The notes: generated by a model from the sequence alone, not told the origin. DNA of 58,992 nucleotides, filler included, from 5 parts of 5 records of this genome joined end to end with filler, not necessarily neighbours in it; one strand, 5' to 3'. Numbered from the whole stretch's first letter, positions 1 to 26,495 are shown. Translations and numbers: made by a program.

Positions 1-27
1 GGTGGTGGTGGTGGTGGTGGTGGTGGT
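1..27. repeat. (GGT)9 microsatellite at contig start
   Basis: Direct reading of the sequence. Confidence 0.95.
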
Positions 28-476
28 TGCCGATTCGTTCTGTGCAGCTGCCTGCCTATGCCCCTGTCCCGTCCCTCTCAAGCTGGCGAGCCAATTGGTT
101 CACAGTTGACGAATGGCGCGGCGCACTCAGTGGTTCTATGGACTGACCGGTGACAAGAGAGTTGACTGATGCGGGCTGAGGGCTGGGTATTGTGAATGTG
201 GAGAGGTGGGTGCTGGTCCCTTGCTTGATGAAGGCTCTCCACTGCAGGAGGAGCTGGTGCAGGCCATGCAACTGGGCAACAAGACGAGTCAATCGTGGGA
301 AAACGCTTGTCCTGTCAAGGTGTTCGACACGCAGGAAACTGAAGAGGCAAAAAAACGAACAGAAGAAAACAGTCGGCACACCATCTTGTGCTGTTGTTGG
401 TGCGAAAACAGTCGCACTCAAACAACTCAGGCCATTCGGCCGAGCCTGTCAATTGAATTCGAACGTTGACGGCAAC

Positions 477-2549: not shown

Positions 2550-2720
2550 TTCGTGCCTCTGCCAGTCGTGTGATACAGCCACACTGATGCGCAAGGCTCG
2601 CCGACCAAATCAGAGCAACATGCAACAAACATATACTACTTTATCATCGTGTATGATGTAAATTACAACACTGTTCGATTATAATTCTTTCCCAGCCCTT
2701 GTGAAGACCTGCAGTTAGAG

Positions 2721-4120
2721 TCAATTACTGCCGGGCAAAGCCGGAATGATGCATGGAGTTCGCTCCATGTACTGGATGTACTTTGGGTCACTTCCCCATT
2801 TCTTGTTTCCATGATGCTCCAAGAGCGGAACACCAGATACCTGGACAGCAGATCGAACACACATACAACATTGTTACATATTTCCAAACACCAAAATGAA
2901 AAGGACATCACTGAACTGGCGATTCCTCAACCCAGCAGTCGCCCAACGTACTTTCGTTAACAGGACAACGGTGAAAATTGGAGAGAGCCACGCAAGGTAT
3001 CTGTGCAAGCGCAGGAGTCGATCACTGTATGGGTCGGGCTGTTGGCTACACATAGCATGCACGTGTGGAAACAGGTGTTCACAACTCACTGCAGCGGTGA
3101 AGACAAGCTGACTGTTGCCGCAAGGGTAACTCCAACCCACATCACAATCTCTCCAAAGTAATTGGGGTGGCGAGATAAAGCCCATAGACCTGTTGAGCAC
3201 AAGTTTATCGTTGCGATTCAGAGCCGCACAGGAGGAAGTTGCGTATGGAGAAGGTGAGTAACTCCACAACTCACCGGTTGTGATAAATTTGTCTTTGTTA
3301 GTAGAATTTCCCCGAAAAGCAGTTTTCTGCGCGTCAGCAATGACCTCGAAAAAGAAACCGAAAACAAAGGCCCCAAAGCCAACTACGTCCAGCAAGCCGA
3401 AAGAGTCACCTGGGAATAAAAAGGAATCTCCGTCAGCCATACACAATATTCTTCTGTCGTTCTTTCGATGTGCAAAGGAGAAAGCATCGGGGTGCTACAA
3501 ACCACCAGCATCTACATCTTGATCACCGACAACGAGGACTGGAAGCTGGATGAGAAATACCCACAAAGCTTGCACTGTCCATGCTGTTGCGAAGCGAAGG
3601 AAGTTTTTCTTCAAGGAGTCAAAGCGTCCATCCTTCCCATCTTTCATAATACGAGTGAATAAGAAACTACCAAGGCGTGTCATCCAGACGATGGAGCACA
3701 CACCAAGCAGGATTTGCCGCCGGCTGCGATTGGGCTTGACGAGCAGCGAAACGATGACGAGCACGAAGTGCGTCAGCGATCCCGACGCGTCGTAATACTT
3801 TTCGGACGAATACGGGAGTCCGTGTCCAAGAAACACGGCCCACTGGATGCCGAGAGAAATCATAGCATAGCCTTGGAGATCTGTGCCAAGTGGCGACAAA
3901 AAATGCATTGCGCATCGGTGTTAGATAGACTCATACGAAAGCGAGGGTGAAAGTATCAGAGTGCTGGCTTCCTTGTGTACGAACCTAGGAGGTGGGAAAC
4001 TGTGTACAAGACGCCAAGCCCGCCAACGTTCCCAATAATTCCACGGAGCCAAGGATTCATTCCCTTCTTCTGCGCAGTGGATGATGACGTGACCGGCGCT
4101 GCTGCATTGCTGGAGGGCAT
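2721..4120 (-). CDS. DUF1295 / steroid 5-alpha-reductase-like membrane protein, 6 exons (4120-3985, 3880-3503, 3409-3275, 3189-3090, 3000-2952, 2840-2721), 305 aa
   Basis: Manual splicing at GT-AG sites gives a continuous 918-nt frame. It contains [45 protein letters not shown] and SGVPLLE motifs typical of DUF1295. Confidence 0.85.
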
Positions 4121-4205
4121 TGTTCTGTTCTAAAGTTGCTTGTCTGAATCGGAAATAGACTTCCCCTTGTCCAAAAACACGAACCGAAAACACAGAGAGC
4201 ACCCA

Positions 4206-4965
4206 AAAAAAAAAAAAAGATACCGCGTTTTCGCGATTCTCGCACGAGCAAGTCCAGACTCCACTTTCATCCACAGGCAAGCGGGTGAGCGAAAACGAGC
4301 CGAGCCACCGACTGCCCCGACCACACACACGCACGCACACACCACACACACACACAACTCCCACCCACACACTCGCACACACCCACACACTCCCACCCAC
4401 ACACTCGCACGCGAAAATAATAAAGAGCCACGCACACACACACACACTCACTCCCCCCAGCCTGTGAGTGGGCTCGTGTGTGCACGTCACCCCTCCACAA
4501 ACAAGCAAGATCCATGATGACATCATCACCCATCGGGTGGACTCATGACGTCATGCACTGTAATATGACGTGTGTATGGCTGGTTTGTGGGTTGTTGTAT
4601 TCACCGGTAATTTTAAATACCGGTCTGTCCGATCCAACGCCATGCGTGTGCGCGGGCAAGCTGCCACACAGACTCGCTCACTCCTCACTCTCACTCACTC
4701 ACTCACTCGCACCAACACAAAATAATTACACAAAGCACACGAGGGGCACACGCAAACCACACACGCAAACCACACGCGAAGCACACTCACCTTTGCGCAT
4801 ACATCGTGCTCGGGTTCGCTTTGTGGTGGGGCCTTGAGCTGTCGTTGCTTGGCGGGTGAGCCTCGCTCCTTCGTTTTGGTTTTTGTGTGTTGCTTTTTGG
4901 TTTTTTTTTTTTGGGGGTGTGCGTGTGCGTGCGCGTGTGCGTGTTTGTGTGTGTGTGCGTGTGCG
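4206..4965. repeat. Poly-A/poly-T and (CA)n/(GT)n low-complexity tracts in the divergent intergenic region
   Basis: Direct reading: A-run near 4206, CA-rich 4321-4450 and 4670-4790, T-run and GT-rich 4890-4965. Confidence 0.85.
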
Positions 4966-5282
4966 CGGCGGGCGGGGGTCGGGTGCTCTGGTTGCACTTT
5001 TGCCGCACTCTAACTGCGGCCAGCCCTAAGCAAGCCCCATAGACAGCCGTTGTCCGTAACATTCACTCACTTTATTGTCCTTCTCTGTGGCTGCTGCTGC
5101 AGCAGCGAGAGAACTAGAAAGAGGAGGAGAGTCGTTCAACAGAGTGCAGTAAGGGGCGGTCTGTCGATTTCGAAACGGGACTTGGTACTCCAGAGTAGCA
5201 TGCTTAGATAGTGCGTGCAAGATCTTGCCTCTCGTCCTTGTGGCGTGGAGGTAAATTGCCACACACAGTACATACATACATC

Positions 5283-8200
5283 ATGGGCGACCAATCAACT
5301 ATCGGTGCCTCGCTGTGGGTGGAGCAGTTGGAACGCAAGGCCAAAGGCTTTCTGAACCGATCTGTGAAAGGCTGGTTCTACATTGTTGGAGGTGAACTTC
5401 GGCGCACAAAGCCAGGCACCGATCAAGTTGATATTGCAAACGACAAAGTTGTGTGCAAGCTTTTTTTGTCAACTTTCAAAGAGGATGGCTCGAATGGCTT
5501 TCGCTTGGTCACCAACACGGGCAAAGACTATCGATTTCGGGCAACAACAGCTGCACTATACAAGGAGTGGAAGCAACGCATAATTTCAGCGATCGAGCAA
5601 GGTCTGGCCGACTTGCTGCCGGCCAGTGATTCCTCCAATGACGCCCAATTCACACACCGTTTGTCCAAAATTCGTGCTGCCAACAAAACTTGTGCGGATT
5701 GCGGCAAACCTGACCCAGAATGGGCCTCAATTAATCTCGGAATCATGTTTTGCGTTGAGTGTTCTGGCACGCACCGTAATTTGGGAACTGATATTTCGGA
5801 AGTCAGGTCTCTGCGTTTAGACAAAGATTGCTGGACTGATTCTTGCGTTGCATATATGCTGAGTATTGGGAACGAGCGAAGCAATGCTGAGTTTGAAGCC
5901 AGACTCGACCCCGATGACAAGCCAGGTCCTACTTCACCCTTGGAGGAGAAACGAGATTTCGTCTTGTCAAAGTAGGTTCTTCGATCGCTAACCTGCGCCT
6001 TAATTTGGATGCAATGGTGCTGCGCGTGATCTTTTCATAATTTTCTAGCTTTTGCGAGGGAGCCACTTATTTTGCAATGAAGCCTTCCGCCTTCTCCTGT
6101 GCTGTTTTCATACCTGATCCGAAAACTTACGCTGCAAATCCTGTGCTGTTTTCGAACTAGGTATCGAGACCTTAAATTTGCCTCTGTTCCAGCTGTCATG
6201 CGAATGCAAGTCCAACTTGGCAACATCACCCAAGTGGAAGCGGCCCAGGCCCTTCGCGAAATGGGACTTCCACCCGCATTTGGAAAGAGACCCACTGCCC
6301 CGGAAGCACCAAACTCCAATACCCAGATGAACCCCAGTGTTGTTGATACGGCTCCTGCACCACAAGAGAAACCTCGGCGACGCATCGGGACGAACATTGG
6401 CAGTAGCGCAGAAAAGGCAACTAAGGCCCCTCCCAAACCAATTCCACGGCCTCGGCCAGGTAGACCGCCATCGAAGAAACCTCCTCCTCTACCGTCAAAG
6501 CGCCCTCCCATTCACAGTCGCCAAAACCGCTCGCCTACCCAGAATAGCGATCTTGATAAGAGCGACATTGACCAGGACAGCAGTAGCCATAGTTATGAAA
6601 ATGAGAATGACGAAAAAATGGGGGCTTCACTTGAGATCGCAGATTCTGATGATGGCAGCAGCGATAGCGAGCTCGTCGAGTATAACGAGGAAGACGAACT
6701 CATTGCCGACCTCGTTGCGACGTCGAAGCGATATGTTGTTGAACAGCGACGACGGCGATCCTCAGTTCGCGCTGGTTTTGGAAGTTCTGGCCGGTCACCT
6801 GCTGCTTCAAGTGCCCTCGTTGACAGCGATTCGGTAGCTCTTTTGCCGCACATGGCTCTCCCCGGGTCCCCTTCTCCTGCGGTAGTTAATCGGCTCAGGA
6901 GAAACGCAAGTCTTTCTCCCAACACAGCTCGTCTTGCAGCTGCAGCGGCTGCTGCAGCTGCTGCCGTTGATCAAGTTGGTGTTGATAGGCATGGACAAGG
7001 TGGGGAAAGTATCAATGCTTCAATCGTGCACGGGGATCAAACCAATCTTGGGAAACTACCAACTACGCAGGACCAGCAAGTCCCTTTTAATTTGGCGACA
7101 CAGCTTCGCCGGTACTACAATGAACAATTGAAGCACTACCTTCGTGCCATTGGCAAAGAGCCCAATAGCTTGGAGGCAAAATCAGCCTCTCCAGGTTTTG
7201 CAGTTGCTTGCACCCGGGTGGTTCAACCACCAAGTGCCGACTCTTACTTGAACAATTGGACCTCGCGCGCCACCGCAAATGCTGTCGTGGGCAGCCATTT
7301 GTCCCTCTCGAGTGAAATCTTGTTCGAGACCACCTGCGCTCACTATCTTCAGATGGTGAACTACGAGTACGTTCTTGAATAAAAAATCCGGCCCTTGCTA
7401 TTTCCCGGTGGTGGGTGCAATGTTGGATCTGAGTTGGGAACTCTCATGTTGTATTTTATGGTGTGGCTGTTGTTGTGACTGTGTACACGTTTCTGGCTGC
7501 AACAGATACCACGCGACAGATGTAGATCCTGAGTCGGGTGACACCGCACTTCACGTGGCATGCCGAATGGGGGACGACGTGGCTGCAAAGCTCCTTGTCA
7601 GTGCAGCTCCTACTCTGTGCGCCAGTGTAAATCACGATGGCGATACCCCTCTTCAGATTGCCCACACGCGACAGCGGCAGCTGCGTTTGTTTGGAGTAAA
7701 GACGAGTCGAAAAGCAGTCGCAGGCACTGACGAGCAGTCCCAAGCCGAGCATCAGCTTCGGATGTTGTCGGCTCGTTGTGCTCGTCTAGTGCAAGACCTT
7801 TCTCACACTCTTCGTCGACTTACGAGTGGGCGCAATGTGTACCGCCGGGAAGCTACGTCGGTCGAAGTCGTGGCTTGGATTCTTCAGTTCCTCTCGGCCA
7901 CTGAACAGCGTCGCGCAGCTGGAGTGTGCCATGGATGGACATGGGCATCACTTGAGGCGACGCGGCTGTCGCGGTTGGAGATGGAAGAGAATGCGTTAGC
8001 TCGACACAGCGAACTTCGAAAGACCCTTCCTCGCTTGAATTCTGACAAAGTTTACACACCACTAGGCTTGGAGCAGCTGCGTGTAGCTCGCAGCCTCAAC
8101 TTTGACAGCGACGACAGTGAGCACGGCGCAGATGACACCTTGGACCCAGACAGTGATTGGTGTGAATCATTGGACGCTGCATGCCACCGTCAATTGTTTT

Positions 8201-11200
8201 CTCTGCAACCTCGGGCCGGTCAGCTTTCAAGAATTGTGTCGAAAGCAATTTTCAAGGTACGTGGAATGACGCCTGCCGTGTTTATAGTCCTTCGGACCGT
8301 GCCTGAAAAGTTGCTCATAGTGTAAGGGGCATCATATCGTCCTTTTGTATTGGATTGCAGATGAATGCTGACGTTAATTTCAGAGCAGCCCACGGCTTCA
8401 GTCCCTTGCATGTTGCTGCTTTGCGCGCCGAAAGTGAGCCCTCCAATTCAGATGACGGAAGTAGCCCAGACGATCTGCTCAACCGTCTCTACTCTGTAGC
8501 TCGTCGCACGGCCGAGCAAGTGGACGATGAATCGTTTTCTGTATCTGATAGACGTGGAGAAGACGATAGTGTCGTTCGCGTGTTGACTGGAACTGGTGCA
8601 GATGTGGCTCAAGTCAACAACAATGGTGTCTGGCCCGGGATGCTGGCAACTGGGGTTCGTGCTTCATTTGTTCAATGGTCTTGCGGTCATTTGTGAATGC
8701 CATGTTCAACACAGTGCTGCTACCACGAGTGCTCGCTGCTAAGGCTGGAGATTCACTGCATGCACTAATCACTTTAGGCGACTCGGGCTCATTTGTTCCG
8801 CCAGCTTCATCTCCAAGTACTATTCTCTGTACGTCGGAATCCTGAAACCTCACCTCACATAGCTTTTTCCACTGCTGCTGGCTACTCCTTGCGCTCAACG
8901 ACCTCAACAAGGTTGCACGGGCTCCCTCATGCAGTCGGGGACGAAAACGAGCTAGAGCAGGGCAATTCATTTTCGCTGTGGCAAGACGAAGTTCACCCAG
9001 ATGATGATCCTTGGCAGATTGATCTTCGTGACCTTGATCGCTGGATGCTTTTTGCAGCAGCCCCGAATCCTTCTGGTGACGTTGAGTTGGAGGCGCACTT
9101 GCGGACACTGTGTGGTGTGCTGATACTGAGCATTGCTGGAGCACGGTGTATCAACCATCGCAACGCTATCAGCGCTATGCGTCGTGTTCTGGAGGTGCGC
9201 AGTTTTTTCTTAATTGGTTGCACCTGTGGTGCAGTTTTTTTGGGAAATTTATTTCTAAAGTATGCGTGTAGATCGAAGCTATCCGTCGTCGTTGGGATCT
9301 GAACGCGGATTTGACCACCCTTCTAGAGCGTGTGGCCGCAGCCGGTGTGCAACCCTCGGCCTTAAGTATTGGACCCACGGTTGTTTCTGCAGCAGCTGCG
9401 GGTATGTCTAATTCCAACAGCGACGCAACTGACGCCGATACGCCATCTTTTTGTGCAGAACAAGAGTTCGGGGCAGTTTCTTCCACGCGCGAGCCTATTC
9501 GTCGGCGCCAATCCGTCATGATCCGCAGCGTTCAATCATGGCCAGTGTCAGTTGCACTGCTTCAAACACTTGGTGGTCGCACGGCGTTGCAATGCGCCGC
9601 TGCTGCGGGGTCTTCTGCTATGGTGTGTTTTCTACTTGCGCACGGTGCTGATGCGACAAAAGAGCACCGCGCAGTTCCGCCCCACTTTGTACCGGACGCT
9701 GCAGCCAAACTCAATTCAGAGATTTTTTTTGCTCTTGACGTCCCTCGCGAAGAAACTATTGCGCCGTGCACCCTTGCGTGGGCAAGGAACACGCGTTTCT
9801 TTTCGATTCGACCGATCGCTTGTGTGTTGGATAATCCGCAACTCATCAATGTCTTAAGTCCCGCCTGCCCGAAAATTCCTCGATTCCCTCCACTTGCCCT
9901 TGATGATTCTGTTCCGCTTAGTATCAACGAGTTCGATAAGCAGCGGACAATCAACTTCTTCTGCATTGCGGAAAAACGTTTCACTGCCGATGGAGACATG
10001 ACCGGACATCGTATTCTGTGGCGGTATGAACTCGGCACAATTGCTTGGTCAGGCGGGCTATCGTGTGACTGTTGTTCAAAGAAATCACCTCTAAGTCCTT
10101 CATATTGTCAATTTCTTGTTGCTCAGGTATCCTTCGCACGGAGCTGCCGGCGCAGGCTTCGATGAAAATGCCGCGGTGCTTGCGTGTGCCCCTCCTGCGT
10201 TAGTGCGATGCAGTTTTGGTCAGTTTAAGGATGGTGAAAGTGCTCAAATCGGCAGTCGCAGCCAACGTTTGATTTGTCCAACCAAGTATTCCTGTGTCAT
10301 GCACCAAGAAGCTGGACTTCCAGCGGTATACGTGACGTCACTTTCAACGACGATAGGCATCGATACTCTTGGCCATTCTGCCGTACCGCTTAAGCGCGAC
10401 AGTGACGCAACTCACAGTGTATCTGGCGAAACGTGTGTTGTGGCGCTTTGTCTCATTTCAAACTATTGTCGTTTTTCCTTCTACGAAGATGTTCTCCAAG
10501 AACTCTATCAAATTGCTGTGGACGACTTTGAAACTGCGCAGTCGCCTTCGGTTCAACGGGACAGGATAACTTTTGTAGACATGCTCGATGATTCTCAAGT
10601 TTTGCGCTGTGCTGCGTCGGTTGTCGACTCCCTTGAAGAATTCGAGTTTGGGGCATTGCAAAGACTTCACATCAGTCGTCACAATGTGAATGCGGACGAT
10701 CGAAATGCCAGAACCTCGGGTCTAATTCAAATTCCAATTCATTCGCTTGGAATTCCTATTTTTGCGTCCAATGACAACGACACGCCTTTTAATGATGATC
10801 CCAGTTCAAGCGACCTCACGCGCGTGCACCTGAATCTTCAATGGCACACATTGCTGACCTCTCCAGCTCTGCCAGAAGTCGATGCGCAATGTTTCTACGC
10901 GCTCTTCTCCTGCTTATCGGTTTCATCGGTGTTGAAGATAATAGGGCTGTTGCTGACTGATGCAAAAGTCCTTTTGGTATCCAGATCCATTAGTTTGCTC
11001 ACACCAGTCGCAGAGGCACTATCAGCGCTATTATATCCGTGCGTTCATAAGCGTTATGCTTGAAGCCGAGCGCCGTGCCTGCGATGAAGCTTTTGCCAGA
11101 CTTGACTATGCCTCTGCATTTACCCAGGTATGTGTGGCCGAACAATTACATCCCTTTTCTTCCGAGGTCGATGTTCGTGTTCACGGCTTCTCCTGCACCG

Positions 11201-14200
11201 ATTTTTGCTGGAGCGTTGATGGACGATCTCATGAACCTTGTTGATGTAGCCGGTGATGGCATTGGGTATGTGCAAGTAATTCTTGACACTGGTACGTTGA
11301 CCTTGTCTTGCCCGGAAACGTAGCCAGCAACGGTGTTGTGCCTCGGCGTACCATGTTTTGCGTGAACTCTTCCCTGCTGTTGCAACAATCGAATCACAAT
11401 GTTTGCATTTCTACGTGCAGGGAGTGTGGTTCCGCCACCATCTGACATGACCGCCGAAGAGGATTCCGGATCTGAACTCCCACCTGATGTCCGCAGGCAA
11501 CTTTTCCATCGCTTGCGCCCATTAGTGTGCATTTCATCTGCACAGCGCCGTTGTTTCCTGGACTTAGTGCATGTGGAAGGTAGTGTGAACAATGCACTGC
11601 GAACGGTAGGAGTGTTTAGCTCTGAGCTCAAAGGCGACGATCCTAATAGTGGATTCTTCTTGGACATTCCGCGCATCCGTGGTGCTTTTGCAGAAACTCT
11701 TGGAACACTTCTCGGTGATTTCTCGGTATTTGCGCTCAATGAACAGTATGTATCCAATGGCGAAGCGTCGGCATTTCCAGCCACAGTACCAGATGGTTCG
11801 CACCCGTTTCTTCGTCGACACGTGCAAAGCCGTGTTTTTGCAACTTTTTGTGAAGCTGTTTCCCACAGGAATCTGAATCAGCCGATTGATGGTCAAACAA
11901 ATGACCAGATTAGCAGTGGTACTGCCAATGTGGATATCCAAGACGCACTTGTGGAGAGGCGAGCAAGGCTGTTCGCAAGTTGTCGCCGAGACAAACAATT
12001 ACTCAGTCGCTTAGTTGGCCCCATCACGTTTCATGCAGCCCATGCTCGCTACAATGAAATGTTTCACCAGCAACAACCGGAGGCTATGGTGGAAGAAACC
12101 ATTCGACGCTTTTCTCGACGGCTGCAGCAACGTCGTGCTTCGCTTGCGGCTTTAGCGGTTGACACGGCAATGCTTCTCGCTTCACACCCAACTTTCGGTG
12201 AAGAAAATCGCCCACAAGGGGGCGATGAAGCATACGGATCTCCTTCAACACCTCTGAGTGATGATGCTCAATCTGAAGACAACAGTGATAGCGAGAGCAG
12301 GTCATCGTCTGAATTTGATGATGGGGAGGTAGACCTTGACGCAAAACTTTTGCGCACCAGCCACAATTCTGATATGGAACGTAGTCTGTCGACTGACTTG
12401 CCATCTGCTCGCTCTCCATCACTGACCGAGGCAGCGGAACTGCTGGATGCAGCGATTGACGGCTGCGAGCGTTCACGAGATGTCGAAGCGCTTGAACAAG
12501 CATTGGCCACGGTTGCTGGCATGGACCGAAATAGCACCGAGCTGAAGCCCTCCATCGAGGACGCAGAAGAGTTACTGGCTGAACTTCGAGCCGAACAACG
12601 CGTTGTCTCCCAAACTGTTGCTGCTGGAACTGATTATAGCGACGAGGATAATGAGCGCGAAAATATTGGGGATGGTGGCATGGCTCAAATTATTAACGAA
12701 CAATTTCGAGCAGGAGTCATCAGCGCGGAAGAGCGAGACGCCATGCTCCAAGTACAAAAACGAGGCGAGCACGTCTCGGAGTCTGACGAAATGCAGATGT
12801 CGAACACATCTAGTCATGCGATTCACGACAGTCAAGATCCAAATGGACACGATACCGATACTATCGATAGCGACGAAAACAGCAGCGACCTTGCCATGGA
12901 TGAAGATGACTGGCAAGTGGGTGATTCAGTGGCTGTGTTTCCCGATGAACCCGCTGCTTCAGATCCAAATGCAGATTTCCGTGAAGCCACAATTCTTTGC
13001 CTTGGTTTGGGAGAGCAACAGACAATGGTCGAAGTTCGTTTCAACAGTAAACCAGCGACAACTGCAATTGTTCCTGCATCGTGCTTAGTTCTTCTTGGCG
13101 AAGAGGAGGAAGAGGAGGTGGTCGAGAGTGATTCTGGCAGCTTGAGCCTCAGTGTGGGGGATGCTGAGCAAGGCAATCCCTTCGGCTCGGATGAAAGCAG
13201 TGACGATACTAGTGATGATGAAAAACATCGTGACCACAGCAGGACCACGGGGGAGTTGAGCAATGTGGTGCACTCTGACAAAGAATGTCACCCGTCGAGC
13301 GACGAACATTCAGGAAATATGAAGTTGCGCGAGGCACAGGCAGCACTCGACGAGGCCAGTGCTGTCTCACCCACATCGGTTTCATTGCCACACAGCCTAC
13401 AAGACACGGAGTTGTTGGAAGAATGTGAAGCCTTTCCAGCAATCGCTGAGTCTACAGCAGCGAGTCCGAGAGATGCAATCACAAACGTGTACGGTGGCGA
13501 GAAGAGTGCGGTTGGGCAGGTGGCTGCTTGTTCCAAGGACAAAAACGATGTGATGCCAGTACCTTTCAGTGCATTGGAAGTTGGTTCTCGTGTACAGCTT
13601 GTGGAAGATCCTTCTGCAATGCGGCAAGCTCAGGCACGAGCGGATTTGGAATGGGTTCCAGCGCTGGAGGCGAAGTGTGGTGTGTTTGCCACAATCGTGG
13701 ATTGCGATGACAGTGATGACACAGTTCAAGTTGAGTTTGCCGACTGCTCCAACGAATGGTTTCACGTGTCTGCACTTCAACGCCATGTCAATGGCAAAGA
13801 CATTGTGAACCAGAGGGAAGAAGAAGACAAAAAAAGTGAAGCCAGTCATGACTCGCAAGTTGGTGCTTTGGAGTGCAATATTTCGTTTGACCTCGCAGTG
13901 GCCGGGACCGTTGTGTGCTTGGTGCCTGACGCAGCGTTGCTGCGCGAAGCACAAGCCCGCGCGGAGCTAGAGTGGGCACCATCACTCACGAAACAATGTG
14001 GAAAGGAAGCGACGGTAGTGAAGCGCGATCCCAAGGATGAAACAGTGTGCATAAAGTTTGCAGACAATGTTGATGCATGGGTGCACATTTCGGCCATATT
14101 GCGCCCAGCTGCTCGACGAATTGCATGGCCAGCAACGGAGGAGTCGGTCCCACCCAGCGTTGCAAAACGGACTGAAACTGACGATACCAGTCCCGGTGAC

Positions 14201-15244
14201 GATCTTAACGAACCAAAGGAAATTTTGCGTGACAACGTGACTACTCAGGAACCATCGGGTATTCTTACAATCGATGAGGTGGTACTTGGTGCAGCGGTGC
14301 GTGTACTGCCCGACGTCAAGCTTGTTGAACAGGCGCAGGCGAGCGCAGATTTGGAATGGTCCACCCTTTTATCACAACGATGCGGTGCTGACGCGATTGT
14401 TGTTGACCGAGATATGAGTGATGGAACCGTGCAAGTTCAATTTGACGATGGTTGCGAGGAATGGTTTCACGTTTCGGCACTTGCTCAGGAAACACACCTT
14501 TACGAACCAAAATCCGCGTGGGCAGGCACAACAAGCCAGCACACGCCTGCCACATCTGGTGTTGCTGAGACTATGAACCACGAAACAGAAGATAGGGAAA
14601 CAACACTGAGTAGCAGCAATATGAGTGAAAAAGAAAGTGAGAGTGTTTCTCCACATTTTTCACCAATGCAATTCAGCCGTGCTTGTCTCGGAGTCGTTGT
14701 ACAGCTTTCTACAAATGTAGATATTGTGCGCAAGGCTCAGCGTCAAGCCGATCTGGCGTGGTCCCCTAATTTGGCCACTTACTGCGGAACTGAGGCAACA
14801 ATCGTAGATCGTGATGAGTCCGACAGCACACTCCAACTAAAATTTTCTGATGGCCAAGATGAATGGCTTCATATCTCTGCTGTTTGCAAGAGTCCGAATG
14901 GCCCCGACAATGAGAATGCTCAAGTTGACACCAAAGCCGACGGAGGCGCTCACAGTTCTTCAGCTCGGCCTGCCGACAGCGCACTTTGCCAAGCTGACAT
15001 TGACGAAAAAGTTGAGGATCTTCCGCTCAGCTTGCCTCGCAGTGCTGCATACTTCACGAAGCGATTTCGGGAAGTTTTTGGACAGAAGATGCAGGAACTG
15101 CGAGAGCACTACGTGCGCAAGCGCCGACCAGCTTCGCTGCAAGTTCAGTGGTACAACAGCCTCGCGGGCACGGCAAAGTTCATCCAGATGGTATGGCGGC
15201 GCCACCACGTGCGCCAGCGGGGGGGAGTAAAAGAGTCTGAATAA
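5283..15244 (+). CDS. Large multidomain trafficking regulator PH-ArfGAP-Pro-rich-ANK-F-box-like-ANK-DENN-4x Mib SH3 repeat-IQ-like; 9 exons (5283-5971, 6161-7366, 7506-8256, 8361-8654, 8778-9194, 9272-10023, 10127-11038, 11128-11291, 11421-15244), 3002 aa
   Basis: All eight GT-AG introns join consecutive ORFs in phase (9009 nt total). ArfGAP zinc finger CADC-x16-CVECSGTHR; ankyrin motifs GDTALHVAC, GDTPLQIA, GFSPLHVAA, GRTALQCAA; DENN motifs ILWRYP, LLTDAKVLLVS and LLYPYVWPNNYIPFLP. Confidence 0.75.
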
Positions 15245-15704
15245 AATGTGTGCTTCCACGTCTGAAACAAATGACGCGGGAACAGCAGCCTTCTCAGCTG
15301 ACCAAAAGCCAGCCGGTTGTGCTTGACCATTGAAAGTTCCGCACTTGTGCCACAAGTTTTCCTGGTGGGGCCCTTTCGCGCGCAAGTCAACGCACTCCAC
15401 ACTGATACTAACACTCAGCGGCTTGCTTCTGTGGAGCAGCGGTTGGAACCAGTCAGTGTCGCGCTGCGGCACCGAAGCCGAAACTGCAACGAGCTCAAAT
15501 ACGTAAATGCGCCACTCTCGTCGTCTTATTGTGCAATGATGTTGTGAAGGGTGGTCTGTCTGGTCCATTGAAGTTCATAAAAATCCACCTTGAAAATTTA
15601 AACAGTTGACAGTGAGTTTTTTGCACTTACTTATCACCATGTTTCCTTATAAGTGAAATATCTTTAATTAAGCGGTAGTTAAAATAAAGCACCCAGTGTC
15701 CGTT

Positions 15705-15824
15705 TCGCTCCTCCTCTCTCTTATCTCTCTCGTGCTCCTGCTCTCCCTCTCTCCGTCTCTCGCAATCTCTCTCTCTCTCTCTCCCTCCCGCTCGCTCGCT
15801 CGCTCGCTCTCGCGCTCTCTCTCT
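15705..15824. repeat. (CT)n/(CGCT)n low-complexity tract at contig end
   Basis: Direct reading of the sequence. Confidence 0.9.
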
Positions 15825-15924
15825 NNNNNNNNNNNNNNNNNNNNNNNNNNNNNNNNNNNNNNNNNNNNTTAATTAATTAANNNNNNNNNNNNNNNNNNNN
15901 NNNNNNNNNNNNNNNNNNNNNNNN
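15825..15924. other. Artificial contig spacer N44-TTAATTAATTAA-N44
   Basis: Identical 100-nt structure occurs four times; the core has stops in all six frames. Confidence 0.97.
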
Positions 15925-17248
15925 GTTAGATGATGGCTATATAGAGCTTGCAGAGCAATTGATTGTAAATGCGATAATAGACGGCCTTAATACAGCACGT
16001 GCCAGTATATGGTTACTCAATAACGATAATAGCCAGTGCCATTGCCAATTACTGATAGATAAAACCAATGCCGAGATAGATCAGTCATTAATATTAACGC
16101 GGGTTAATTTTCCTGCTTATTTTAGTGCACTCGATTCGCAGCGTGTGATCATTGCTAATAACGCGCATACTGATCTCGCTACATCTGAATTTTCTGAGCA
16201 TTATTTAACACCCCTTGGTATTCATTCCATGTTGGATGCGCCACTGCGCTTTAAAGGCAAAATGATCGGCATTTTTTGTTGTGAACACACCGGAAGTTTC
16301 CGGCAATGGGCAGACGATGAATGTACGTTTCTTTGTGGATTGGCTGATCTTTATGGCCGGGCACTGTCGGCGCAGGAGAGCCGATTAGTAAAACAAGAGT
16401 TAGAAGCTGCAAATCGCTACCTTGAAGAACGTGTTGTTGAGCGCACCAATACGCTACAAAAAACCTTAGAAGCGCTCACTGGCACGCAAGAAAAACTAAT
16501 CGAGTCTGAAAAAATGGCCGCATTAGGAAATCTCGTTGCAGGGGTTGCCCACGAAGTAAACACACCGATCGGTGTTGCCGTTACTGCCAATAGTTCAGCA
16601 ACCGATAACCTCAAACAACTAAAGCAGCAGCTAGCGGCTAATACGTTATCGAAAAAGAGCTTAATGAGCTCTCTTGAGCATATTGATGAGTGTTTAACGA
16701 TCGCAAGTAGCAACCTCGATAGGGCGGCAGCTTTGATCTGTAATTTTAAACAAACAGCCGTTGACCAATCATCATTAGATATTAGTACTGTGCTGCTAAA
16801 GGATTATTTGGCTAATACCATCCATAGCCTCACGCCATTAACCCGCAGCCATCATATCAGCACTGCAATTGACTGCGACGAAACACTTAGCTTAGTGACG
16901 GTATCCGGTGCTTTAAGCCAAATTCTTATGAATCTAGTAAGTAATAGCTGCGTGCATGGCTTTAAAGAACGAACCAATAACCAGATCAACATTACCGTCC
17001 AAGTAGATAACCAGCAGGGCAATTATACGTTATGCTATCGCGATAACGGCCATGGCATGACGACTAACGTTTTACAAAGTGTGTTCGAACCTTTCTTTAC
17101 CACCACTCGTGGCAAAGGTGGCAGTGGTTTAGGCATGGCGATTGTTTATAACCTTGCAACTCAAGCGCTGCAAGGCGATGTAAAAGTACACAGCCAACCG
17201 CAGCAAGGTATAACCGTCACCTTTACTTTTCCCCTTAGTTTGAGCTGA
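15925..17248 (+). CDS. GAF-domain sensor histidine kinase (5' truncated by contig edge)
   Basis: GAF (SMLDAPL..GK.IGIFCCEH), coiled coil, H-box VAHEVNTP, N-box NLVSNS..HG, DNGHG, FFTT and GSGLG. Confidence 0.9.
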
Positions 17249-17307
17249 GTGAAAAACAGCTCGTTTGTGGAAGATTTATTCTGGTGACGGGTAATATAAA
17301 CCAGTCT

Positions 17308-20300
17308 TTAGGATTGATTTAATGAGCTTTTATACTTTGTAAGGCAATCACTCAGCGCGGTTATTTTCAGCTCACATAATGCAGCTTGCTGCTGTTTAGC
17401 TGCATCTTCTAACTCGCTTGCCAGTTCACTTAATGTGTTTGCCATCACCATTTGCGCCGCTCCTTTGAAGCGATGGGCTATCGCGCTCAGTTGTGTAAAA
17501 TCAGTTTGGGCGTATGCATCACTAAGTTCGCTTATATCGATATTTGCACTGGCAATAAACTCTGCAAGTAGTTCCAATACAGATTCTTTAGCGCCAAACA
17601 TGTGTTGTAATTCAGCAATATTAAACTGCATTTCGCTTACCTTGTCAGTGGGTACGTTACTGTGCGCAGTCACTGGCGCGAGGGACGGTAAATATTTATT
17701 AAGTTTAGCCTGTAGCACGCTTTGGCTCACCGGTTTGCTTAGGTAGCCGTTCATTCCAAGCTCAATACAGTGCTGTGCTTCACCAGTTAATGCATTTGCG
17801 GTAAATGCAATGATTGGTATAGTACAGCCTTGTTGGCGCAGTTGCTTAGTAAGTCCGTAGCCATCGAGTTCCGGCATATGGCAGTCAGTGATCAGTAAAT
17901 TGTAATCTTGCTTTCCAATGGCTTCGAGCGCTTGTACACCGTTTTCAACATAATCGGCTTGATAGCCTAAGCTTTCGAGTTGACGCTTAATCACTCTACG
18001 ATTAGTCGGGTGATCCTCGGCAACCAAAATTAAGCGGCCACTGGCAATGGCTTGCTGTTTGGTTTGCAGCACAATCTTTTGCTCTTGTGTGGTGCCCGTA
18101 AAGTTCATTAACTGATTATCGTAAGCCTTAGCAAGAATATTAAGTAAGGGCGACAGCAACAATGGATTGGCGGGTAAAAAGTAATCGGCATCGAGATCAC
18201 TGTTTGCCACGGCGCACAGTTTAACCCATACATTACTGCTATCAGCCGTTTTTAACCGCTGAATATGATTGAGTTGGTTATGATAAATAATCACGCAATC
18301 ACTGTGTTGTTGCGGGTTAAGCCATACCGTTGGGTTATTGGTGTTCGGTTCATGAATAAATGCCACCTGCCAACGCTTTAAATAATGCATCACCTGTTTA
18401 ATACATTCACTGCCATCATCAAGTAGCAGTAATGATTTGTGCAACGGTGTTTTTGGTAACGTAGAGACCGCATATGATTCAAGCGGGATCACAAAACTAA
18501 ACGCACTGCCTTTACCCAAGTCACTTTTTAATGAGATCTCACCACCAAGGCGGTTTACCAGCATGCGACAAATTGATAGCCCTAAACCTGTGCCACCGTA
18601 TTGACGATTAGTAGAGCTTTCCGCTTGCATGAATGGCGTAAACAACTTGCTTTGATTTTCCTGCGCAATGCCTAGGCCATTATCAGTCACTGTAAACTCT
18701 ACCTGTTGGATATTGCCATCGCTATGTAGTGGCTTTACCGCCATTGCGATATTTCCTTGCTCAGTAAACTTAACCGCGTTACTCAGTAAGTTTGAGAGCA
18801 CTTGTTGTAAACGGACCGGATCTGTTTCAATCAAGCGTTGTAGTTGTGGATCAAAATCAAAACTCATCTGTAAGTTTTTAGCTTGGGCATTGGCAACATG
18901 AGCACGCATTGCATTTTCAACAATATCGAGTAAATCACATTCTACTTTTTCAATGGCAAACTGCTGCTCTTCCATTTTTGTATGATCCAATACATCGTTG
19001 AGAATATGCAGTAAGTTATTCGCTGATGTTGTAATGGTATTGATGTCATCACGTTGCTGATAATCCAAAGATGATTGTGATAACAGCTCTGCGGTGGTAA
19101 TAACTCCGCTCAATGGGGTGCGAATTTCATGGCTCATCATGGCTAAAAAACGCGATTTAGCAATGGCTGCTTGCTCAGCTTTGGTCTTTTCTTCACTGAG
19201 TGCGATTTCTTGCTCTTTACGTTGGCTTATCTCAAGTAATACACCGCTCCATTCGCAGTCATCATCTGCAGTAGTAGGAAACGCCACCAAATTTAGCCAA
19301 TTACTGTAAGGCGCATTAAGCACAAACTCAAAATCAATGCCTTGTTTATCTTCTAAAGCTTGCTGAGCGGCATTAATTAACTGCTGTATTTGCGGTTGTG
19401 AGATCAATTTAAAAAAGTCACTGTCACCGCTTTTGATGGTATGTTTTGCCGATAAATTGATTTGTTTAAAGGGCGTAAAACGCTCAATCCCTTGGCTGGC
19501 GTAACTAAAAATCAGTTGCTTATTATCAATCCGAAATTGCACCACAGCCCCAGGTATCGCATTGGCTATTGATGTCAGCTTTTGCTCTGCTTGCAACGCT
19601 CGCTGCTGCGCTATCCGTCGAAAACGGATCTCTTGGCGTAATGTTTGATTCCAGTATAAAAAGCCTGCCACAACCAATAAAAATAGCGCACCGGCAACAA
19701 TACTATAATAGATGATTTTTTTTATTGTCACGCCTTGGTTTGCAGTAAGCTCAATCCAACTGCGAGAAAGTGATTCAAGCTCTTCATAGCCAATTGCATC
19801 CAGCGCTTGATTTACCAGCTCAAGTAAAAGTGGCGCTTGTTTTGAGATACCAAGTTGCACATCAATATTGTTGTTAATCGAAAAGTTTTGCTGCAGTTTA
19901 TAAGCATGCTCAGTGTCTTGTGCAAGCCAAGATTGTGATGTTGCTAATGTGGTAAATATAGCGTCAACCTTGTTATTGTTCAGTAATTGCAGGCTTTTTT
20001 CCATGCTGCCTTGAACATTAAATTGACTCTCAGGAAAGTAATCTTGCAGAATTGCTCTGGCGTAATCACCATTTGGCGAAACAATTTTATAGTTACCATA
20101 GCGTAGCTTAGTAATATTAAGTGAGCTATTTTTCAGCGTGACTAAACTCCAAGGAGTACTGAGGTAAGGGTCTGAAAAATTCATTAAAGCCGAGCGCTCG
20201 TTGGTACGCAGCATCGCTGGAATAATATCGATTTTACCGGCCGTTAACAGCGCCATAGCCTCTTCATAGGAGCTACTTGGCACATACTCTAAGGTCACCC

Positions 20301-24112: not shown

Positions 24113-24139
24113 AATTACGCCCTCAGTAAGTTTGGTGAT

Positions 24140-26489: not shown

Positions 26490-26495
26490 ACAGGC

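What the first reader, a model, noticed from the sequence alone, without database searches (positions are those of the whole stretch)
5283..15244. Predicted 3002-aa protist protein fusing an Arf GAP and a DENN (Rab GEF-type) module
Seen: nine ORF pieces splice in phase through canonical GT-AG introns (77-189 nt) with no intergenic gap. The order is PH-ArfGAP(C4 Zn finger, catalytic Arg in GTHR)-Pro-rich-ANK-F-box-like-ANK-uDENN/cDENN/dDENN-acidic-SH3-like repeats-IQ-like. Established: ArfGAPs switch Arf off and DENN domains switch Rabs on; in animals and fungi these are separate proteins. Inference: a single-chain Arf-off/Rab-on cascade switch with possible ubiquitin and calmodulin inputs. I do not recognise this architecture.
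Basis: partly seen in the sequence, partly recalled or inferred. Interest (0 to 1): 0.75.

Follow-up and report, generated by a model that had tools for sequence, protein, structure and literature searches.

The report
Giant Arf-GAP plus DENN fusion gene
A marine protist gene really does encode one 3002-residue protein that joins an Arf-switch-off domain to a Rab-exchange-factor-like DENN module, but similar joins already sit unremarked in public oomycete and diatom proteomes, so it is a new variant rather than a new kind.

Summary
Window 5283-15244 (+) gives a nine-exon, 9009-nt, 3002-aa reading frame with eight GT..AG introns of 77-189 nt, exactly as described. Contigs of a public run skip 7 of the 8 introns at the predicted bases. 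A diverged homologue in a seawater metagenome contig (L001) has 5 of the 8 intron positions as continuous open frame and shares the other 3 at the same codon positions.

ArfGap (E 2.7e-31) and DENN (E 3.4e-13) are confirmed by Pfam. The whole longin-DENN-dDENN module of the homologue folds like the DENND1A/B Rab35 GEF domain (Z 22.2). The F-box-like and IQ-like motifs stay below Pfam cut-offs.

The architecture is not unique: 12 of the 150 best DENN hits also carry ArfGap, among them Phytophthora and diatom proteins. The window protein differs from them. It joins a PH-ArfGAP-ANK (centaurin-type) half to an ANK-DENN protist family, and the DENN tree rejects a common origin (p-AU 0.00014). No paper describing either fusion turned up.

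The proposed function, coupled Arf-off and Rab-on, is plausible but untested. Interest is moderate.

The parts
5283..15244 (+). Whole coding region: 9 exons, 8 introns, 3002 codons plus stop
   Evidence: model. (7 of 8 introns skipped by X1 contigs). (homologue L001).
5283..5971 (+). Exon 1: start codon, PH-like domain (about 5310-5627) and most of the ArfGAP domain (from 5658)
   Evidence: ArfGap E 2.7e-31 and PH E 0.011; alignments to AGAP/ARAP/ACAP proteins cover 76-90% of the homologous 258 aa, including the PH part.
5691..5777 (+). ArfGAP zinc finger CX2CX16CX2C followed by the GTHR arginine
   Evidence: pattern located. Identical motif in L001.
5972..6160 (+). Intron 1, 189 nt, GT..AG
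   Evidence: X1 joint 5971->6161. Absent in L001, which has continuous ORF there.
6161..7366 (+). Exon 2: end of the ArfGAP domain, then a Pro/Ser/Arg-rich, acidic, low-complexity linker (about 6192-7271)
   Evidence: composition. No Pfam family. 38% identity to L001 with 102 gap positions.
7367..7505 (+). Intron 2, 139 nt, GT..AG
   Evidence: X1 joint 7366->7506. Absent in L001.
7506..8256 (+). Exon 3: first ankyrin block (about 7519-7665), the F-box-like island (7846-7992) and a poorly conserved tail
   Evidence: Ank_2 5.7e-6 and Ank 1.5e-5. F-box-like E 0.023, below the cut-off; the island is 65% identical to L001, against 24-39% in its flanks.
8257..8360 (+). Intron 3, 104 nt, GT..AG, phase 0. 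This is the junction between the two ancestral halves.
   Evidence: X1 joint 8254->8359 (cut +2), but with only 22 nt on the shorter side. L001 has a phase-0 intron at the same position.
8361..8654 (+). Exon 4: ankyrin-like repeat
   Evidence: Ank E 0.01, weak. The GFxPLHxAAL motif is conserved in L001. One 1185-nt X1 contig joins exons 4, 5 and 6.
8655..8777 (+). Intron 4, 123 nt, GT..AG, phase 0
   Evidence: X1 joint with 255 nt on the shorter side. Same position in L001.
8778..9194 (+). Exon 5: conserved region with no known family
   Evidence: No Pfam hit. 54% identical to L001, starting from the first codon after the acceptor.
9195..9271 (+). Intron 5, 77 nt, GT..AG, phase 0
   Evidence: X1 joint with 255 nt on the shorter side. 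Same position in L001.
9272..10023 (+). Exon 6: last ankyrin repeat (9575-9655) and the start of the longin/uDENN subdomain (from about 9941)
   Evidence: Ank 1.8e-4; longin fold in the L001 model; alignment to the window.
10024..10126 (+). Intron 6, 103 nt, GT..AG
   Evidence: X1 joint. Absent in L001 (P0001) and in P0004.
10127..11038 (+). Exon 7: rest of the longin/uDENN subdomain (to about 10538), a linker, and the first part of the core DENN (from about 10815)
   Evidence: DENN 3.4e-13, profile positions 76-136. cDENN is 80% identical to L001.
11039..11127 (+). Intron 7, 89 nt, GT..AG. Not seen spliced in RNA contigs.
   Evidence: X1 contig 10564-11124 runs into it. The splice is supported by the intronless L001 sequence across this point and by Pfam DENN profile continuity, 136 to 135.
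11128..11291 (+). Exon 8: second part of the core DENN
   Evidence: DENN profile 135-165, E 0.025; alignment to DENND1A/B.
11292..11420 (+). Intron 8, 129 nt, GT..AG
   Evidence: X1 joint 11290->11420 (cut +1). Absent in L001.
11421..15244 (+). Exon 9: dDENN helical subdomain (to about 12145), an acidic Ser/Asp/Glu-rich region, SH3-like repeats, the C-terminal IQ-like motif and the stop codon
12908..13099 (+). Divergent SH3/Tudor-like unit (rep0)
   Evidence: No Pfam hit. 33% identical to the equivalent unit in L001. By eye only.
13565..14896 (+). Four tandem units of about 75 aa, Mind-bomb-type SH3 (SH3_15): 13565-13789, 13886-14110, 14273-14494, 14672-14896
   Evidence: SH3_15 at 33.2 bits against a cut-off of 24 for the whole exon; single units give 5.4e-4, none, 0.013 and none; 42-47% pairwise identity; L001 has one unit.
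15173..15220 (+). IQ-like motif (IQxVWRxxHxxxR) at the C-terminus
   Evidence: IQ E 0.11, 12.8 bits, below the cut-off of 20.3. A similar motif lies at the C-terminus of P0001 (by eye).

Best explanation
Window 5283-15244 is one real, spliced eukaryotic gene on a 15.8-kb contig of a mixed marine assembly. Its 3002-aa product is a fusion of two recognisable ancestral proteins.

- The N-terminal half is a centaurin/AZAP-type Arf GAP: PH, then ArfGAP with an intact zinc finger and arginine, a long disordered linker, then ankyrin repeats.
- The C-terminal half belongs to an ANK-DENN family of marine protists: ankyrin repeats, a longin-DENN-dDENN module of the DENND1 Rab-GEF fold, then peptide-binding SH3-like repeats.

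Most likely mechanism (inferred, not shown): the protein sits on an endocytic or recycling membrane through its PH domain and its SH3_15/ANK contacts. There it stimulates GTP hydrolysis on an Arf-family GTPase while its DENN module loads GTP on a Rab. This would hard-wire in one chain the kind of Rab-to-Arf counter-regulation that animals run with separate proteins: DENND1 activates Rab35, Rab35 recruits ACAP2, and ACAP2 switches Arf6 off.

Shown: gene structure, splicing, domain identities, the catalytic motifs of the ArfGAP, the DENN fold, and conservation of the whole arrangement in a second organism.

Inferred: GEF activity, the substrates, membrane localisation and the coupling.
For: Gene structure:
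- The model has no internal stop.
- X1 contigs skip 7 of 8 introns at the exact bases, and one contig joins exons 4-5-6 plus 22 nt of exon 3.
- L001 keeps the same domain order in 4 exons, with 5 of the window's 8 intron sites as open frame and 3 shared phase-0 introns.
- L002, an independent contig, is 3327 of 3327 identical to L001 across those three junctions.
- Exons 4, 5 and 6 are conserved from their first codon, and in L001 they have no usable upstream ATG.

Domains:
- ArfGap E 2.7e-31 and DENN 3.4e-13.
- Zinc finger and arginine present.
- The best non-self relatives of the PH-ArfGAP part are AGAP, ARAP and ACAP proteins at about 110 bits.
- DENND1A/B are the best PDB sequence matches.
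- Fold matches are Foldseek E 7.4e-13 and VIA Z 22.2 with 351 of 375 residues aligned.
- The cDENN falls in a 23-row clade (SH-aLRT 93) in which 8 of 9 tested members are ANK+DENN.
- There is no conserved arginine in the longin beta4-beta5 loop, so it does not fit the Avl9-type DENN-GAP criterion.

Precedent for coupling:
- Rab35 acts through its effector ACAP2 to switch off Arf6, and DENND1A-C are Rab35 GEFs (PMC4004601, abstract and passages).
- The mirror fusion TBS (Sec7 Arf GEF + TBC Rab GAP) arose at least twice and was proposed as an Arf-Rab crosstalk site (PMC6727740, passages).
Against: - No single contig or read spans the whole gene.
- The junction between the two ancestral halves (intron 3) is bridged by only 22 nt on one side, below the tool's 31-nt rule.
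- Intron 7 was seen unspliced, not spliced.
- X1 is only guessed to be RNA.
- uDENN and dDENN give no Pfam hit in the window or in L001. The fold evidence comes from the homologue, which is 45-80% identical, not from the window protein itself.
- The best match to DENND1 may simply reflect that few classical DENN GEF domains are solved, so it does not assign the Rab35-GEF subfamily.
- Some DENN proteins are GAPs or have no detectable GEF activity.
- In canonical AZAP proteins the ANK repeats follow the ArfGAP domain directly. Here about 370 disordered residues intervene.
- No GTPase of this organism is available, so no substrate prediction was possible.
Confidence: 0.6

Rival explanations
1. 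Two neighbouring genes, or two alternative messages, rather than one protein. A PH-ArfGAP-ANK gene would end by read-through into intron 3, and an ANK-DENN gene would start in exon 4. The 3002-aa product would then be rare or absent.
For: - The two halves each resemble free-standing families: AZAP Arf GAPs and ANK-DENN proteins.
- In the window, exon 4 begins with ATG right after the acceptor.
- The X1 bridge over intron 3 has only 22 nt on one side.
- Intron retention occurs in this run, at intron 7.
- No contig spans the whole gene.
Against: - The 22 nt fit exactly at the predicted GT..AG donor.
- L001 has no ATG at the start of exon 4. Its first in-frame ATG lies after the conserved ankyrin GFTPLH motif.
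- The intron position and phase are shared by two species whose introns no longer align.
- The read-through tails after the donor are not conserved.
- The arrangement is reproduced in an independent contig, L002.
Confidence: 0.12
2. It is one protein, but the DENN module is not a Rab GEF. It would act as a GAP or as a non-catalytic GTPase-binding platform, for instance for an Arf-family GTPase. The protein would then be a double Arf regulator or scaffold rather than an Arf-off/Rab-on switch.
For: - Avl9 and DENND6A are monomeric DENN proteins with GAP activity on Arf1 and ARL8B, and no detectable Rab GEF activity. The authors warn against assuming GEF function (bioRxiv 10.64898/2026.01.05.697756, passages).
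- The cDENN sits on a long branch, and Pfam matches only profile positions 76-165 of 186.
- DENND10 and the FLCN/SMCR8 structures also align to the model, at Z 13.4 and 9-11.
Against: - The longin beta4-beta5 loop, where DENN GAPs carry their arginine finger, varies in length. Its arginine is missing in 1 of 3 orthologues.
- Pfam assigns the classical DENN family.
- The closest solved sequences and folds are the Rab35 GEFs DENND1A/B, well above the rest: Z 22.2 and 21.1 against 13.4.
Confidence: 0.2
3. The window protein is simply a diverged member of the oomycete/diatom ArfGAP-uDENN-DENN-dDENN-IQ family. That would mean a single ancient fusion, not a separate event.
For: - The order is the same: ArfGAP, then DENN, then an IQ or IQ-like motif.
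- The ArfGAP-domain tree does not reject putting them together (p-AU 0.41).
- All known carriers with a name are stramenopiles, and the window's nearest named DENN relative is also a stramenopile, Hondaea.
Against: - The cDENN tree places all 12 ArfGAP-DENN proteins on a 47-row side (SH-aLRT 88) and the window family in a different 23-row clade (SH-aLRT 93).
- The AU test rejects their union: p 0.00014, lnL difference 79.9. The group was named after a first tree had been seen.
- The other family has no PH or ANK hit in any of the 12 proteins scanned, and seven of the 12 carry the ArfGAP domain within the first 30 residues; several carry DUF3490.
- The window's PH-ArfGAP scores about 110 bits to AGAP proteins but about 51 bits to P0121.
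Confidence: 0.08

Closest known systems
AZAP/centaurin-type Arf GAPs (AGAP, ARAP, ACAP: PH-ArfGAP-ANK)
   Same: PH directly before the ArfGAP domain, CX2CX16CX2C plus a catalytic arginine, and ankyrin repeats downstream. These are the best non-self sequence matches (about 110 bits, 39% identity, 76% coverage). The nearest rows in the ArfGAP tree are BAR-PH-ArfGAP-ANK proteins.
   Different: No BAR, GTPase-like, RhoGAP or SH3 domain. About 370 disordered residues separate ArfGAP from ANK. The chain continues into a DENN module, which 0 of the 96 hits possess.
DENND1A/DENND1B (connecdenn) Rab35 GEF domain, PDB 6EKK and 3TW8
   Same: Best solved sequence matches (E 3.5e-9 and 1.7e-8). The whole longin-DENN-dDENN fold superposes (Z 22.2 and 21.1, rmsd 3.5 A, 351 of 375 and 348 of 362 residues).
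   Different: Only 13-17% identity in the structural alignment. Large low-confidence insertions lie in the longin and linker regions. Subfamily membership and Rab35 specificity are not established. DENND1 proteins have no ArfGAP, ANK or SH3_15 parts.
ANK-DENN proteins of marine protists (e.g. Hondaea fermentalgiana GBG26769.1, annotated 'DENND1C')
   Same: The cDENN clusters with them (23-row clade, SH-aLRT 93). 8 of 9 tested carry ankyrin repeats before DENN, as the window protein does. One (P0011) also has an SH3-like domain after DENN.
   Different: They are 700-1300 aa and none of the 9 tested has an ArfGAP or PH domain. The window family sits on its own long branch.
Oomycete/diatom ArfGAP-uDENN-DENN-dDENN(-IQ-DUF3490) proteins (Phytophthora capsici KAG1703165.1, Epithemia clementina KAL7579118.1, EukProt GILJ01009697)
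   Same: ArfGap and DENN in one chain, in the same order, with IQ motifs after the DENN module.
   Different: The ArfGAP lies in the N-terminal part of the protein (within the first 30 residues in seven of the 12 scanned), with no PH or ANK hit in any of the 12. All three DENN subdomains score strongly in Pfam. Several carry DUF3490. The cDENN tree and AU test separate them from the window family. They are uncharacterised: no paper was found.
TBS (TBC-Sec7) proteins of alveolates and haptophytes
   Same: A single chain joins a regulator of Arf to a regulator of Rab. It arose by independent fusions and was proposed as an Arf-Rab crosstalk site (PMC6727740, passages).
   Different: Opposite polarity (Arf GEF + Rab GAP) and unrelated catalytic domains (Sec7 and TBC).
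Mind bomb REP / SH3_15 repeats
   Same: Pfam SH3_15 at 33.2 bits over a cut-off of 24. Tandem units of about 75 aa.
   Different: No MIB/HERC2, ZZ or RING domains. That these repeats bind cytosolic tails of membrane proteins is recalled from the Mind bomb literature and was not checked here.

Membership tests
ArfGAP domain (Pfam PF01412) | Profile score above the curated cut-off | tested here: met
   108.5 bits against 28.7 in the window. 109.3 bits in L001.
ArfGAP domain (Pfam PF01412) | C4 zinc finger CX2CX16CX2C and the catalytic arginine just after it | tested here: met
   Pattern at residues 137-160 with GTHR at 162-165. Conserved in L001. The consensus itself is recalled.
ArfGAP domain (Pfam PF01412) | Stimulates GTP hydrolysis on an Arf | not testable with these tools
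   Needs a biochemical assay.
AZAP-type Arf GAP (PH-ArfGAP-ANK) | PH domain immediately N-terminal to ArfGAP | tested here: inconclusive
   Pfam PH scores 16.7 and 18.1 bits, below the cut-off of 25.1. However, alignments to AGAP/ARAP/ACAP proteins cover 76-90% of the 258-aa PH-ArfGAP query.
AZAP-type Arf GAP (PH-ArfGAP-ANK) | Ankyrin repeats C-terminal to ArfGAP | tested here: met
   Ank_2 at 27.3 bits and Ank at 25.4 bits in exon 3. They lie after a linker of about 370 aa, which is atypical.
Tripartite DENN module | Core DENN profile above the cut-off | tested here: met
   50.4 bits against 23.4 in exon 7. 74 bits in L001.
Tripartite DENN module | N-terminal longin (uDENN) subdomain | tested here: met
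   No Pfam uDENN hit. The AF2 model of the L001 orthologue has the beta-beta-alpha-beta-beta-beta-alpha longin fold at pLDDT 74-92. That fold aligns with the DENND1A/B longin and with free longin domains at Z 9-10. This was tested on the homologue, not on the window protein.
Tripartite DENN module | C-terminal helical dDENN subdomain | tested here: met
   No Pfam dDENN hit. The model range 97-632 aligns to DENND1A residues 7-390, the whole GEF domain. This was tested on the homologue.
Tripartite DENN module | Rab GDP-GTP exchange activity | not testable with these tools
   No GTPase of this organism is at hand. Needs an assay.
Monomeric DENN GAPs (Avl9 type) | Conserved arginine finger in the longin beta4-beta5 loop | tested here: not met
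   The loop differs in length in the 3 orthologues, and the Lys-Arg found in the window and P0004 is Lys-Val in L001. The criterion is taken from bioRxiv 10.64898/2026.01.05.697756.
ANK-DENN protist family | cDENN groups with the family, and ankyrin repeats precede DENN | tested here: met
   23-row clade with SH-aLRT 93. 8 of 9 tested members are ANK+DENN. The window has an Ank hit in exon 6 before the longin domain. It was a quick tree, and the window family sits on a long branch.
Oomycete/diatom ArfGAP-DENN-IQ family | cDENN monophyletic with that family | tested here: not met
   AU test p 0.00014. The ArfGAP domain alone is undecided, p 0.41.
F-box | Profile score above the cut-off, or an F-box fold | tested here: inconclusive
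   F-box-like scores 14.9 bits against 24.3 (E 0.023). The AF2 model of the region has pLDDT 41.8, so it is unusable. The motif is nevertheless a conserved island, 65% identical.
IQ calmodulin-binding motif | Profile score above the cut-off | tested here: inconclusive
   12.8 bits against 20.3 (E 0.11). A similar C-terminal motif is present in P0001 (by eye).
SH3_15 (Mind bomb REP) | Profile score above the cut-off | tested here: met
   33.2 bits against 24 for exon 9. Single units score 20.6 and 16.2 bits, and two units give no hit.

The most novel reading that the evidence does not exclude
ArfGAP-DENN fusion has arisen at least twice independently in stramenopile-like protists: once from a centaurin-type PH-ArfGAP-ANK protein plus an ANK-DENN protein (this gene), and once from an N-terminal ArfGAP plus a classical DENN-IQ protein (oomycetes and diatoms). 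Together with the mirror-image TBC-Sec7 fusions, this would make single-chain Arf/Rab counter-regulators a recurrent solution. It would also serve as a 'Rosetta stone' predicting that AZAP-type Arf GAPs and DENN Rab GEFs work on the same membrane in general, as Rab35-ACAP2-Arf6 do in animals.
Probability: 0.35. Interest if true: 0.6.

Novelty: new variant of a known kind. Interest (0 to 1): 0.45.

Why it matters
Arf and Rab GTPases are usually regulated by separate proteins, and how their cycles are coordinated on one membrane is an active question. A natural chain that carries an Arf GAP and a DENND1-like module gives a direct, testable prediction of which Arf and which Rab are coupled in that organism.

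Its apparently independent recurrence in oomycetes and diatoms suggests that the coupling is selected and not accidental. Those proteins are already in public databases but, as far as my searches reach, undescribed.

The practical value is modest. The organism is unidentified and uncultured as far as I can tell, all catalytic domains are known kinds, and no activity has been measured.

Tried and rejected
- RNA runs: no RNA holder listed. The only holder, X1, is labelled 'RNA?' by guess. I treat it as spliced RNA only because its contigs skip GT..AG introns.
- Intron 7: no spliced contig was found. One contig runs into the intron.
- Own assembly: not held. The nearest held genome, G001, has no match to the gene or to window 15925-33475.
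- ESM Atlas with P0001: best scores were 0.82 or lower, only ankyrin and IQ clusters, and no structure search. Uninformative.
- Third word-index homologue search with the 681-aa DENN module: only P0004 was returned, so no named relatives for subfamily assignment.
- AF2 of the ANK/F-box-like region from a 2-sequence alignment: pLDDT 41.8 and pTM 0.30, so no fold search was made.
- Pfam on single pieces: no family for exon 2, exon 5, rep0, rep2 or rep4. No uDENN or dDENN hit in the window or L001.
- ArfGAP-domain tree: the AU test is undecided, p 0.41.
- Earlier findings of this scan: none for this genome, none for 'ArfGAP DENN', and no look-alike stretch.
- Literature: 'ArfGAP'+'DENN domain'+'fusion' gave 21 papers, of which 15 were listed and none is on such a protein by title or abstract. 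'ArfGAP'+'DENN'+'oomycete' gave 0. 'ArfGap'+'uDENN' gave 2 unrelated papers. 'Arf GAP'+'DENN'+'Phytophthora' gave 0. 'PF01412'+'PF02141' gave 0.
- The DENN survey PMC3521125 (passages) and the Sec7 survey PMC6727740 ('DENN' occurs 0 times) do not mention the fusion.
- The key Arf GAP survey (Schlacht et al. 2013, PMC3660519) is not held and may describe it. Supplements were not consulted.
- Taxon: not determined. 'Stramenopile-like' rests only on the named relatives of single domains.
- Complex prediction was not used, because no partner GTPase from this organism is available.

Full report
**1. What is in the sequence**

On the + strand between 5208 and 15244 there is a chain of stop-to-stop open frames. 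Joining them through GT..AG introns of 189, 139, 104, 123, 77, 103, 89 and 129 nt gives nine exons: 5283-5971, 6161-7366, 7506-8256, 8361-8654, 8778-9194, 9272-10023, 10127-11038, 11128-11291 and 11421-15244. Together they make 9009 nt and 3002 codons, with one stop at the end.

The ATG at 5283 is the first in its frame after an upstream stop. It lies about 1.4 kb from a divergently oriented DUF1295 gene, across a CA-rich low-complexity stretch.

**2. Is the splicing real?**

Two independent lines say yes.

(a) RNA-type evidence. The only public run holding the stretch, X1, is coded, kept as contigs and labelled 'RNA?' by guess. It gave 16 laid contigs, all 99% or more identical. Seven joints coincide with the predicted introns 1, 2, 3, 4, 5, 6 and 8 once the stated cut offsets are applied. 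One 1185-nt contig joins exons 4, 5 and 6 and carries 22 nt of exon 3.

Two weak points need stating:
- Intron 7 was not seen spliced. A 561-nt contig (10564-11124) runs 86 nt into it.
- The bridge over intron 3 has only 22 nt on its shorter side, below the tool's 31-nt rule.

No contig spans the whole gene.

(b) Comparative evidence. A word-index search with exon 7 found P0001, 1319 aa and 45% identical. A metagenome scan placed it on L001, a 48-kb seawater contig. In L001 the PH-ArfGAP-linker-ANK-F-box-like part is one 894-codon open frame, and the ANK-DENN-SH3-IQ part is another 1320-codon open frame. The positions of window introns 1, 2, 6, 7 and 8 are therefore read straight through.

Between those two frames lie two short exons. 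The three L001 introns (103, 93 and 72 nt, GT..AG, phase 0) sit at the same codon positions as window introns 3, 4 and 5. The L001 model has 4 exons and 2387 aa. At the DNA level the two loci align only in the most conserved coding pieces, at 67-77% identity.

Several further points support one gene:
- Exons 4, 5 and 6 are conserved from their first codon.
- In L001, exon 4 has no ATG before the conserved ankyrin motif.
- The read-through tails after the intron-3 donor are unrelated in the two species.
- L002, a contig from another collection, is 3327 of 3327 identical to L001 4847-8173, which spans all three junctions. The L001 arrangement is therefore not an assembly accident.

I put the one-gene reading at close to 0.9.

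**3. Domains**

| Feature | Evidence | Status |
|---|---|---|
| ArfGap | E 2.7e-31; CX2CX16CX2C at residues 137-160, GTHR at 162-165, identical in L001 | Confirmed |
| PH | E 0.011, below cut-off | Indirect support only (section 5) |
| Ank | Hits in exons 3, 4 and 6 | Confirmed |
| DENN core | 3.4e-13 in exon 7 (profile 76-136), continuing in exon 8 (profile 135-165) | Confirmed |
| uDENN, dDENN | No Pfam hit in the window or in L001 | Supported by fold of the homologue |
| SH3_15 | 33.2 bits over a cut-off of 24 | Confirmed |
| F-box-like | 14.9 bits against 24.3 | Lead only |
| IQ-like | 12.8 bits against 20.3 | Lead only |

Because uDENN and dDENN gave no Pfam hit, I folded the intron-free L001 module: 681 aa, a 42-row alignment, pLDDT 68.9, pTM 0.62. 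It has a confident longin fold, an alpha/beta core and a helical C-terminal lobe.
- Foldseek ranks the DENND1B-Rab35 and DENND1A-Rab35 GEF domains first: E 7.4e-13 and 9.1e-12, target TM 0.69 and 0.66.
- VIA-align gives Z 22.2 (rmsd 3.5 A, 351 of 375 residues, model 97-632 on chain 7-390) and Z 21.1. The next entries are DENND10 at 13.4 and FLCN/SMCR8-type chains at 9-11.
- By sequence, DENND1A and DENND1B are also the best solved matches, at 3.5e-9 and 1.7e-8.

The SH3_15 region consists of four units of about 75 aa, 42-47% identical to each other. L001 has one such unit.

The F-box-like piece is a conserved island, 65% identical against 24-39% in its flanks. An AF2 model of that region was unusable, at pLDDT 41.8. 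The F-box and IQ claims remain leads.

**4. Is ArfGAP+DENN unknown?**

No. An exhaustive HMMER search of 1.84 billion representatives with the L001 DENN region gave 1836 hits at E up to 1e-3, but only 4 at E up to 1e-30.
- Those four, and the next two close hits, are fragments.
- Three of them (P0005, P0007, P0008) read the same as the window's own open frames where they overlap (compared by eye).
- P0004, P0006 and P0017 come from other organisms.

So the family is rare, and it has no annotated full-length member in that collection.

Among the 150 listed DENN hits, however, 12 also match an ArfGAP query. All 12 of 12 are confirmed by Pfam as ArfGap + uDENN + DENN. Most also have dDENN, some have IQ, and several have DUF3490. 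Named members include:
- Phytophthora capsici KAG1703165.1 (hypothetical protein)
- Phytophthora oleae KAL3673689.1
- the diatom Epithemia clementina KAL7579118.1
- one EukProt transcript

Six literature searches and passages of two survey papers turned up no description of such proteins. The main Arf GAP survey, Schlacht et al. 2013, could not be read.

**5. Where the two halves come from**

The PH-ArfGAP part (258 aa of L001) finds 96 proteins at E up to 1e-10.
- After L001's own ORF, the best are AGAP/centaurin-gamma, ARAP and ACAP proteins, at about 110 bits and 76-90% coverage including the PH region.
- 0 of the 96 carry DENN.

In a cDENN tree of 146 rows (4 rows of the window's own or tiny fragments were dropped), the window and L001 form a 100%-supported pair inside a 23-row clade with SH-aLRT 93. 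All 12 ArfGAP-DENN proteins lie on a different 47-row side with SH-aLRT 88.

Of 9 tested members of the 23-row clade, 8 have ankyrin repeats followed by DENN. One of these also has an SH3-like domain, and one has a WW domain. One member is Hondaea fermentalgiana GBG26769.1, a labyrinthulomycete.

On a 57-row subset (5 long or odd rows dropped, 24 of the remaining rows drawn at random, mixture model), the AU test rejects joining the window family with the 12 ArfGAP-DENN proteins: p 0.00014, lnL difference 79.9. The caveat is that the grouping was framed after a first tree.

The short ArfGAP domain is undecided. Its nearest rows are ACAP-type, but the AU test gives p 0.41 for the union.

My reading is that this gene is a fusion of a centaurin-type PH-ArfGAP-ANK protein with an ANK-DENN protein, joined around the F-box-like region and intron 3. 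It probably arose separately from the oomycete/diatom ArfGAP-DENN-IQ proteins. The shared order ArfGAP, DENN, IQ-like is the main point against independence.

**6. How it most likely works**

Shown:
- an ArfGAP domain with all recognisable catalytic features
- a complete DENN module of the Rab-GEF fold
- ankyrin and SH3-type interaction modules
- conservation of the arrangement in a second species, with ArfGAP 74% and cDENN 80% identical

Inferred: on one membrane the protein switches an Arf off and a Rab on.

Two precedents exist:
- In animals DENND1 proteins activate Rab35, and Rab35 uses its effector ACAP2, a PH-ArfGAP-ANK protein, to switch off Arf6 (PMC4004601, abstract and passages).
- The mirror fusion TBS (Sec7-PH-TBC) arose at least twice, and its authors propose Arf-Rab crosstalk (PMC6727740).

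The main caution is that monomeric DENN proteins such as Avl9 and DENND6A are GAPs for Arf-family GTPases (bioRxiv 10.64898/2026.01.05.697756). The criterion given there is a conserved arginine in the longin beta4-beta5 loop. It is not met here, because the loop is variable and the arginine is absent in L001. That mildly favours the GEF reading. Substrates cannot be named.

**7. Context**

The window is not one piece of DNA. Runs of 44 N flank the linker TTAATTAATTAA at four places, and composition jumps at each. The piece 33576-53097 is 97% identical to a bacterial genome, G001. The gene's piece (1-15824) and 15925-33475 have no match there. The gene therefore lies on a 15.8-kb eukaryotic contig in a mixed assembly. 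The organism is unidentified, and 'protist' is reasonable. A stramenopile affinity is only hinted at by the named relatives of single domains.

**8. Verdict**

All the catalytic parts are known kinds. The ArfGAP+DENN combination already exists in public stramenopile proteomes, though apparently undescribed. This particular architecture, PH-ArfGAP-ANK joined to ANK-DENN-SH3_15, has no annotated counterpart and looks like a second, independent fusion. I rate it a new variant of a known kind, of moderate interest.

Noticed in passing
window 15825-15924, 24533-24632, 33476-33575, 53098-53197: Each site is 44 N, then TTAATTAATTAA (stops in all six frames), then 44 N. Base composition jumps at each site. 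The window is therefore a chain of unrelated contigs joined by an artificial linker, not one locus.
   Followed up: yes
window 33576-53097: This low-GC piece (about 0.36) is 97% identical over its full length to the held bacterial genome G001. The assembly therefore mixes bacterial and eukaryotic DNA.
   Followed up: partly
window 15881-17245 (+): The next contig opens with a GAF plus histidine-kinase ATPase protein (Pfam). It looks bacterial and is unrelated to the finding.
   Followed up: partly
window 180-2546 (+): The upstream neighbour is a 789-codon open frame with four Myb DNA-binding repeats in two pairs (Pfam E 8.6e-47).
   Followed up: partly
window 2877-3920 (-): Two adjacent minus-strand open frames both hit DUF1295 (profile 10-109 and 115-167). 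This is probably one gene split by an intron or a frameshift, divergent from the ArfGAP-DENN gene.
   Followed up: no
window 4100-5100: The stretch between the divergent genes is CA/TG-rich and low-complexity. X1 contigs have loose ends at 4673 and 4708 there.
   Followed up: no
window 11039-11127: Intron 7 is the only intron not seen spliced. An X1 contig (10564-11124) reads into it, which suggests intron retention, pre-mRNA or DNA in that run.
   Followed up: partly
window 13565-14896 versus L001 model residues 2219-2293: The SH3_15 unit is present once in the L001 homologue but four times in the window (42-47% pairwise identity). This is a lineage-specific repeat expansion.
   Followed up: partly
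proteins P0121, P0028, P0080, P0083, P0139: The oomycete/diatom ArfGAP-DENN proteins also carry DUF3490. From memory, I know this domain from plant kinesin-like proteins. The combination seems undescribed.
   Followed up: no
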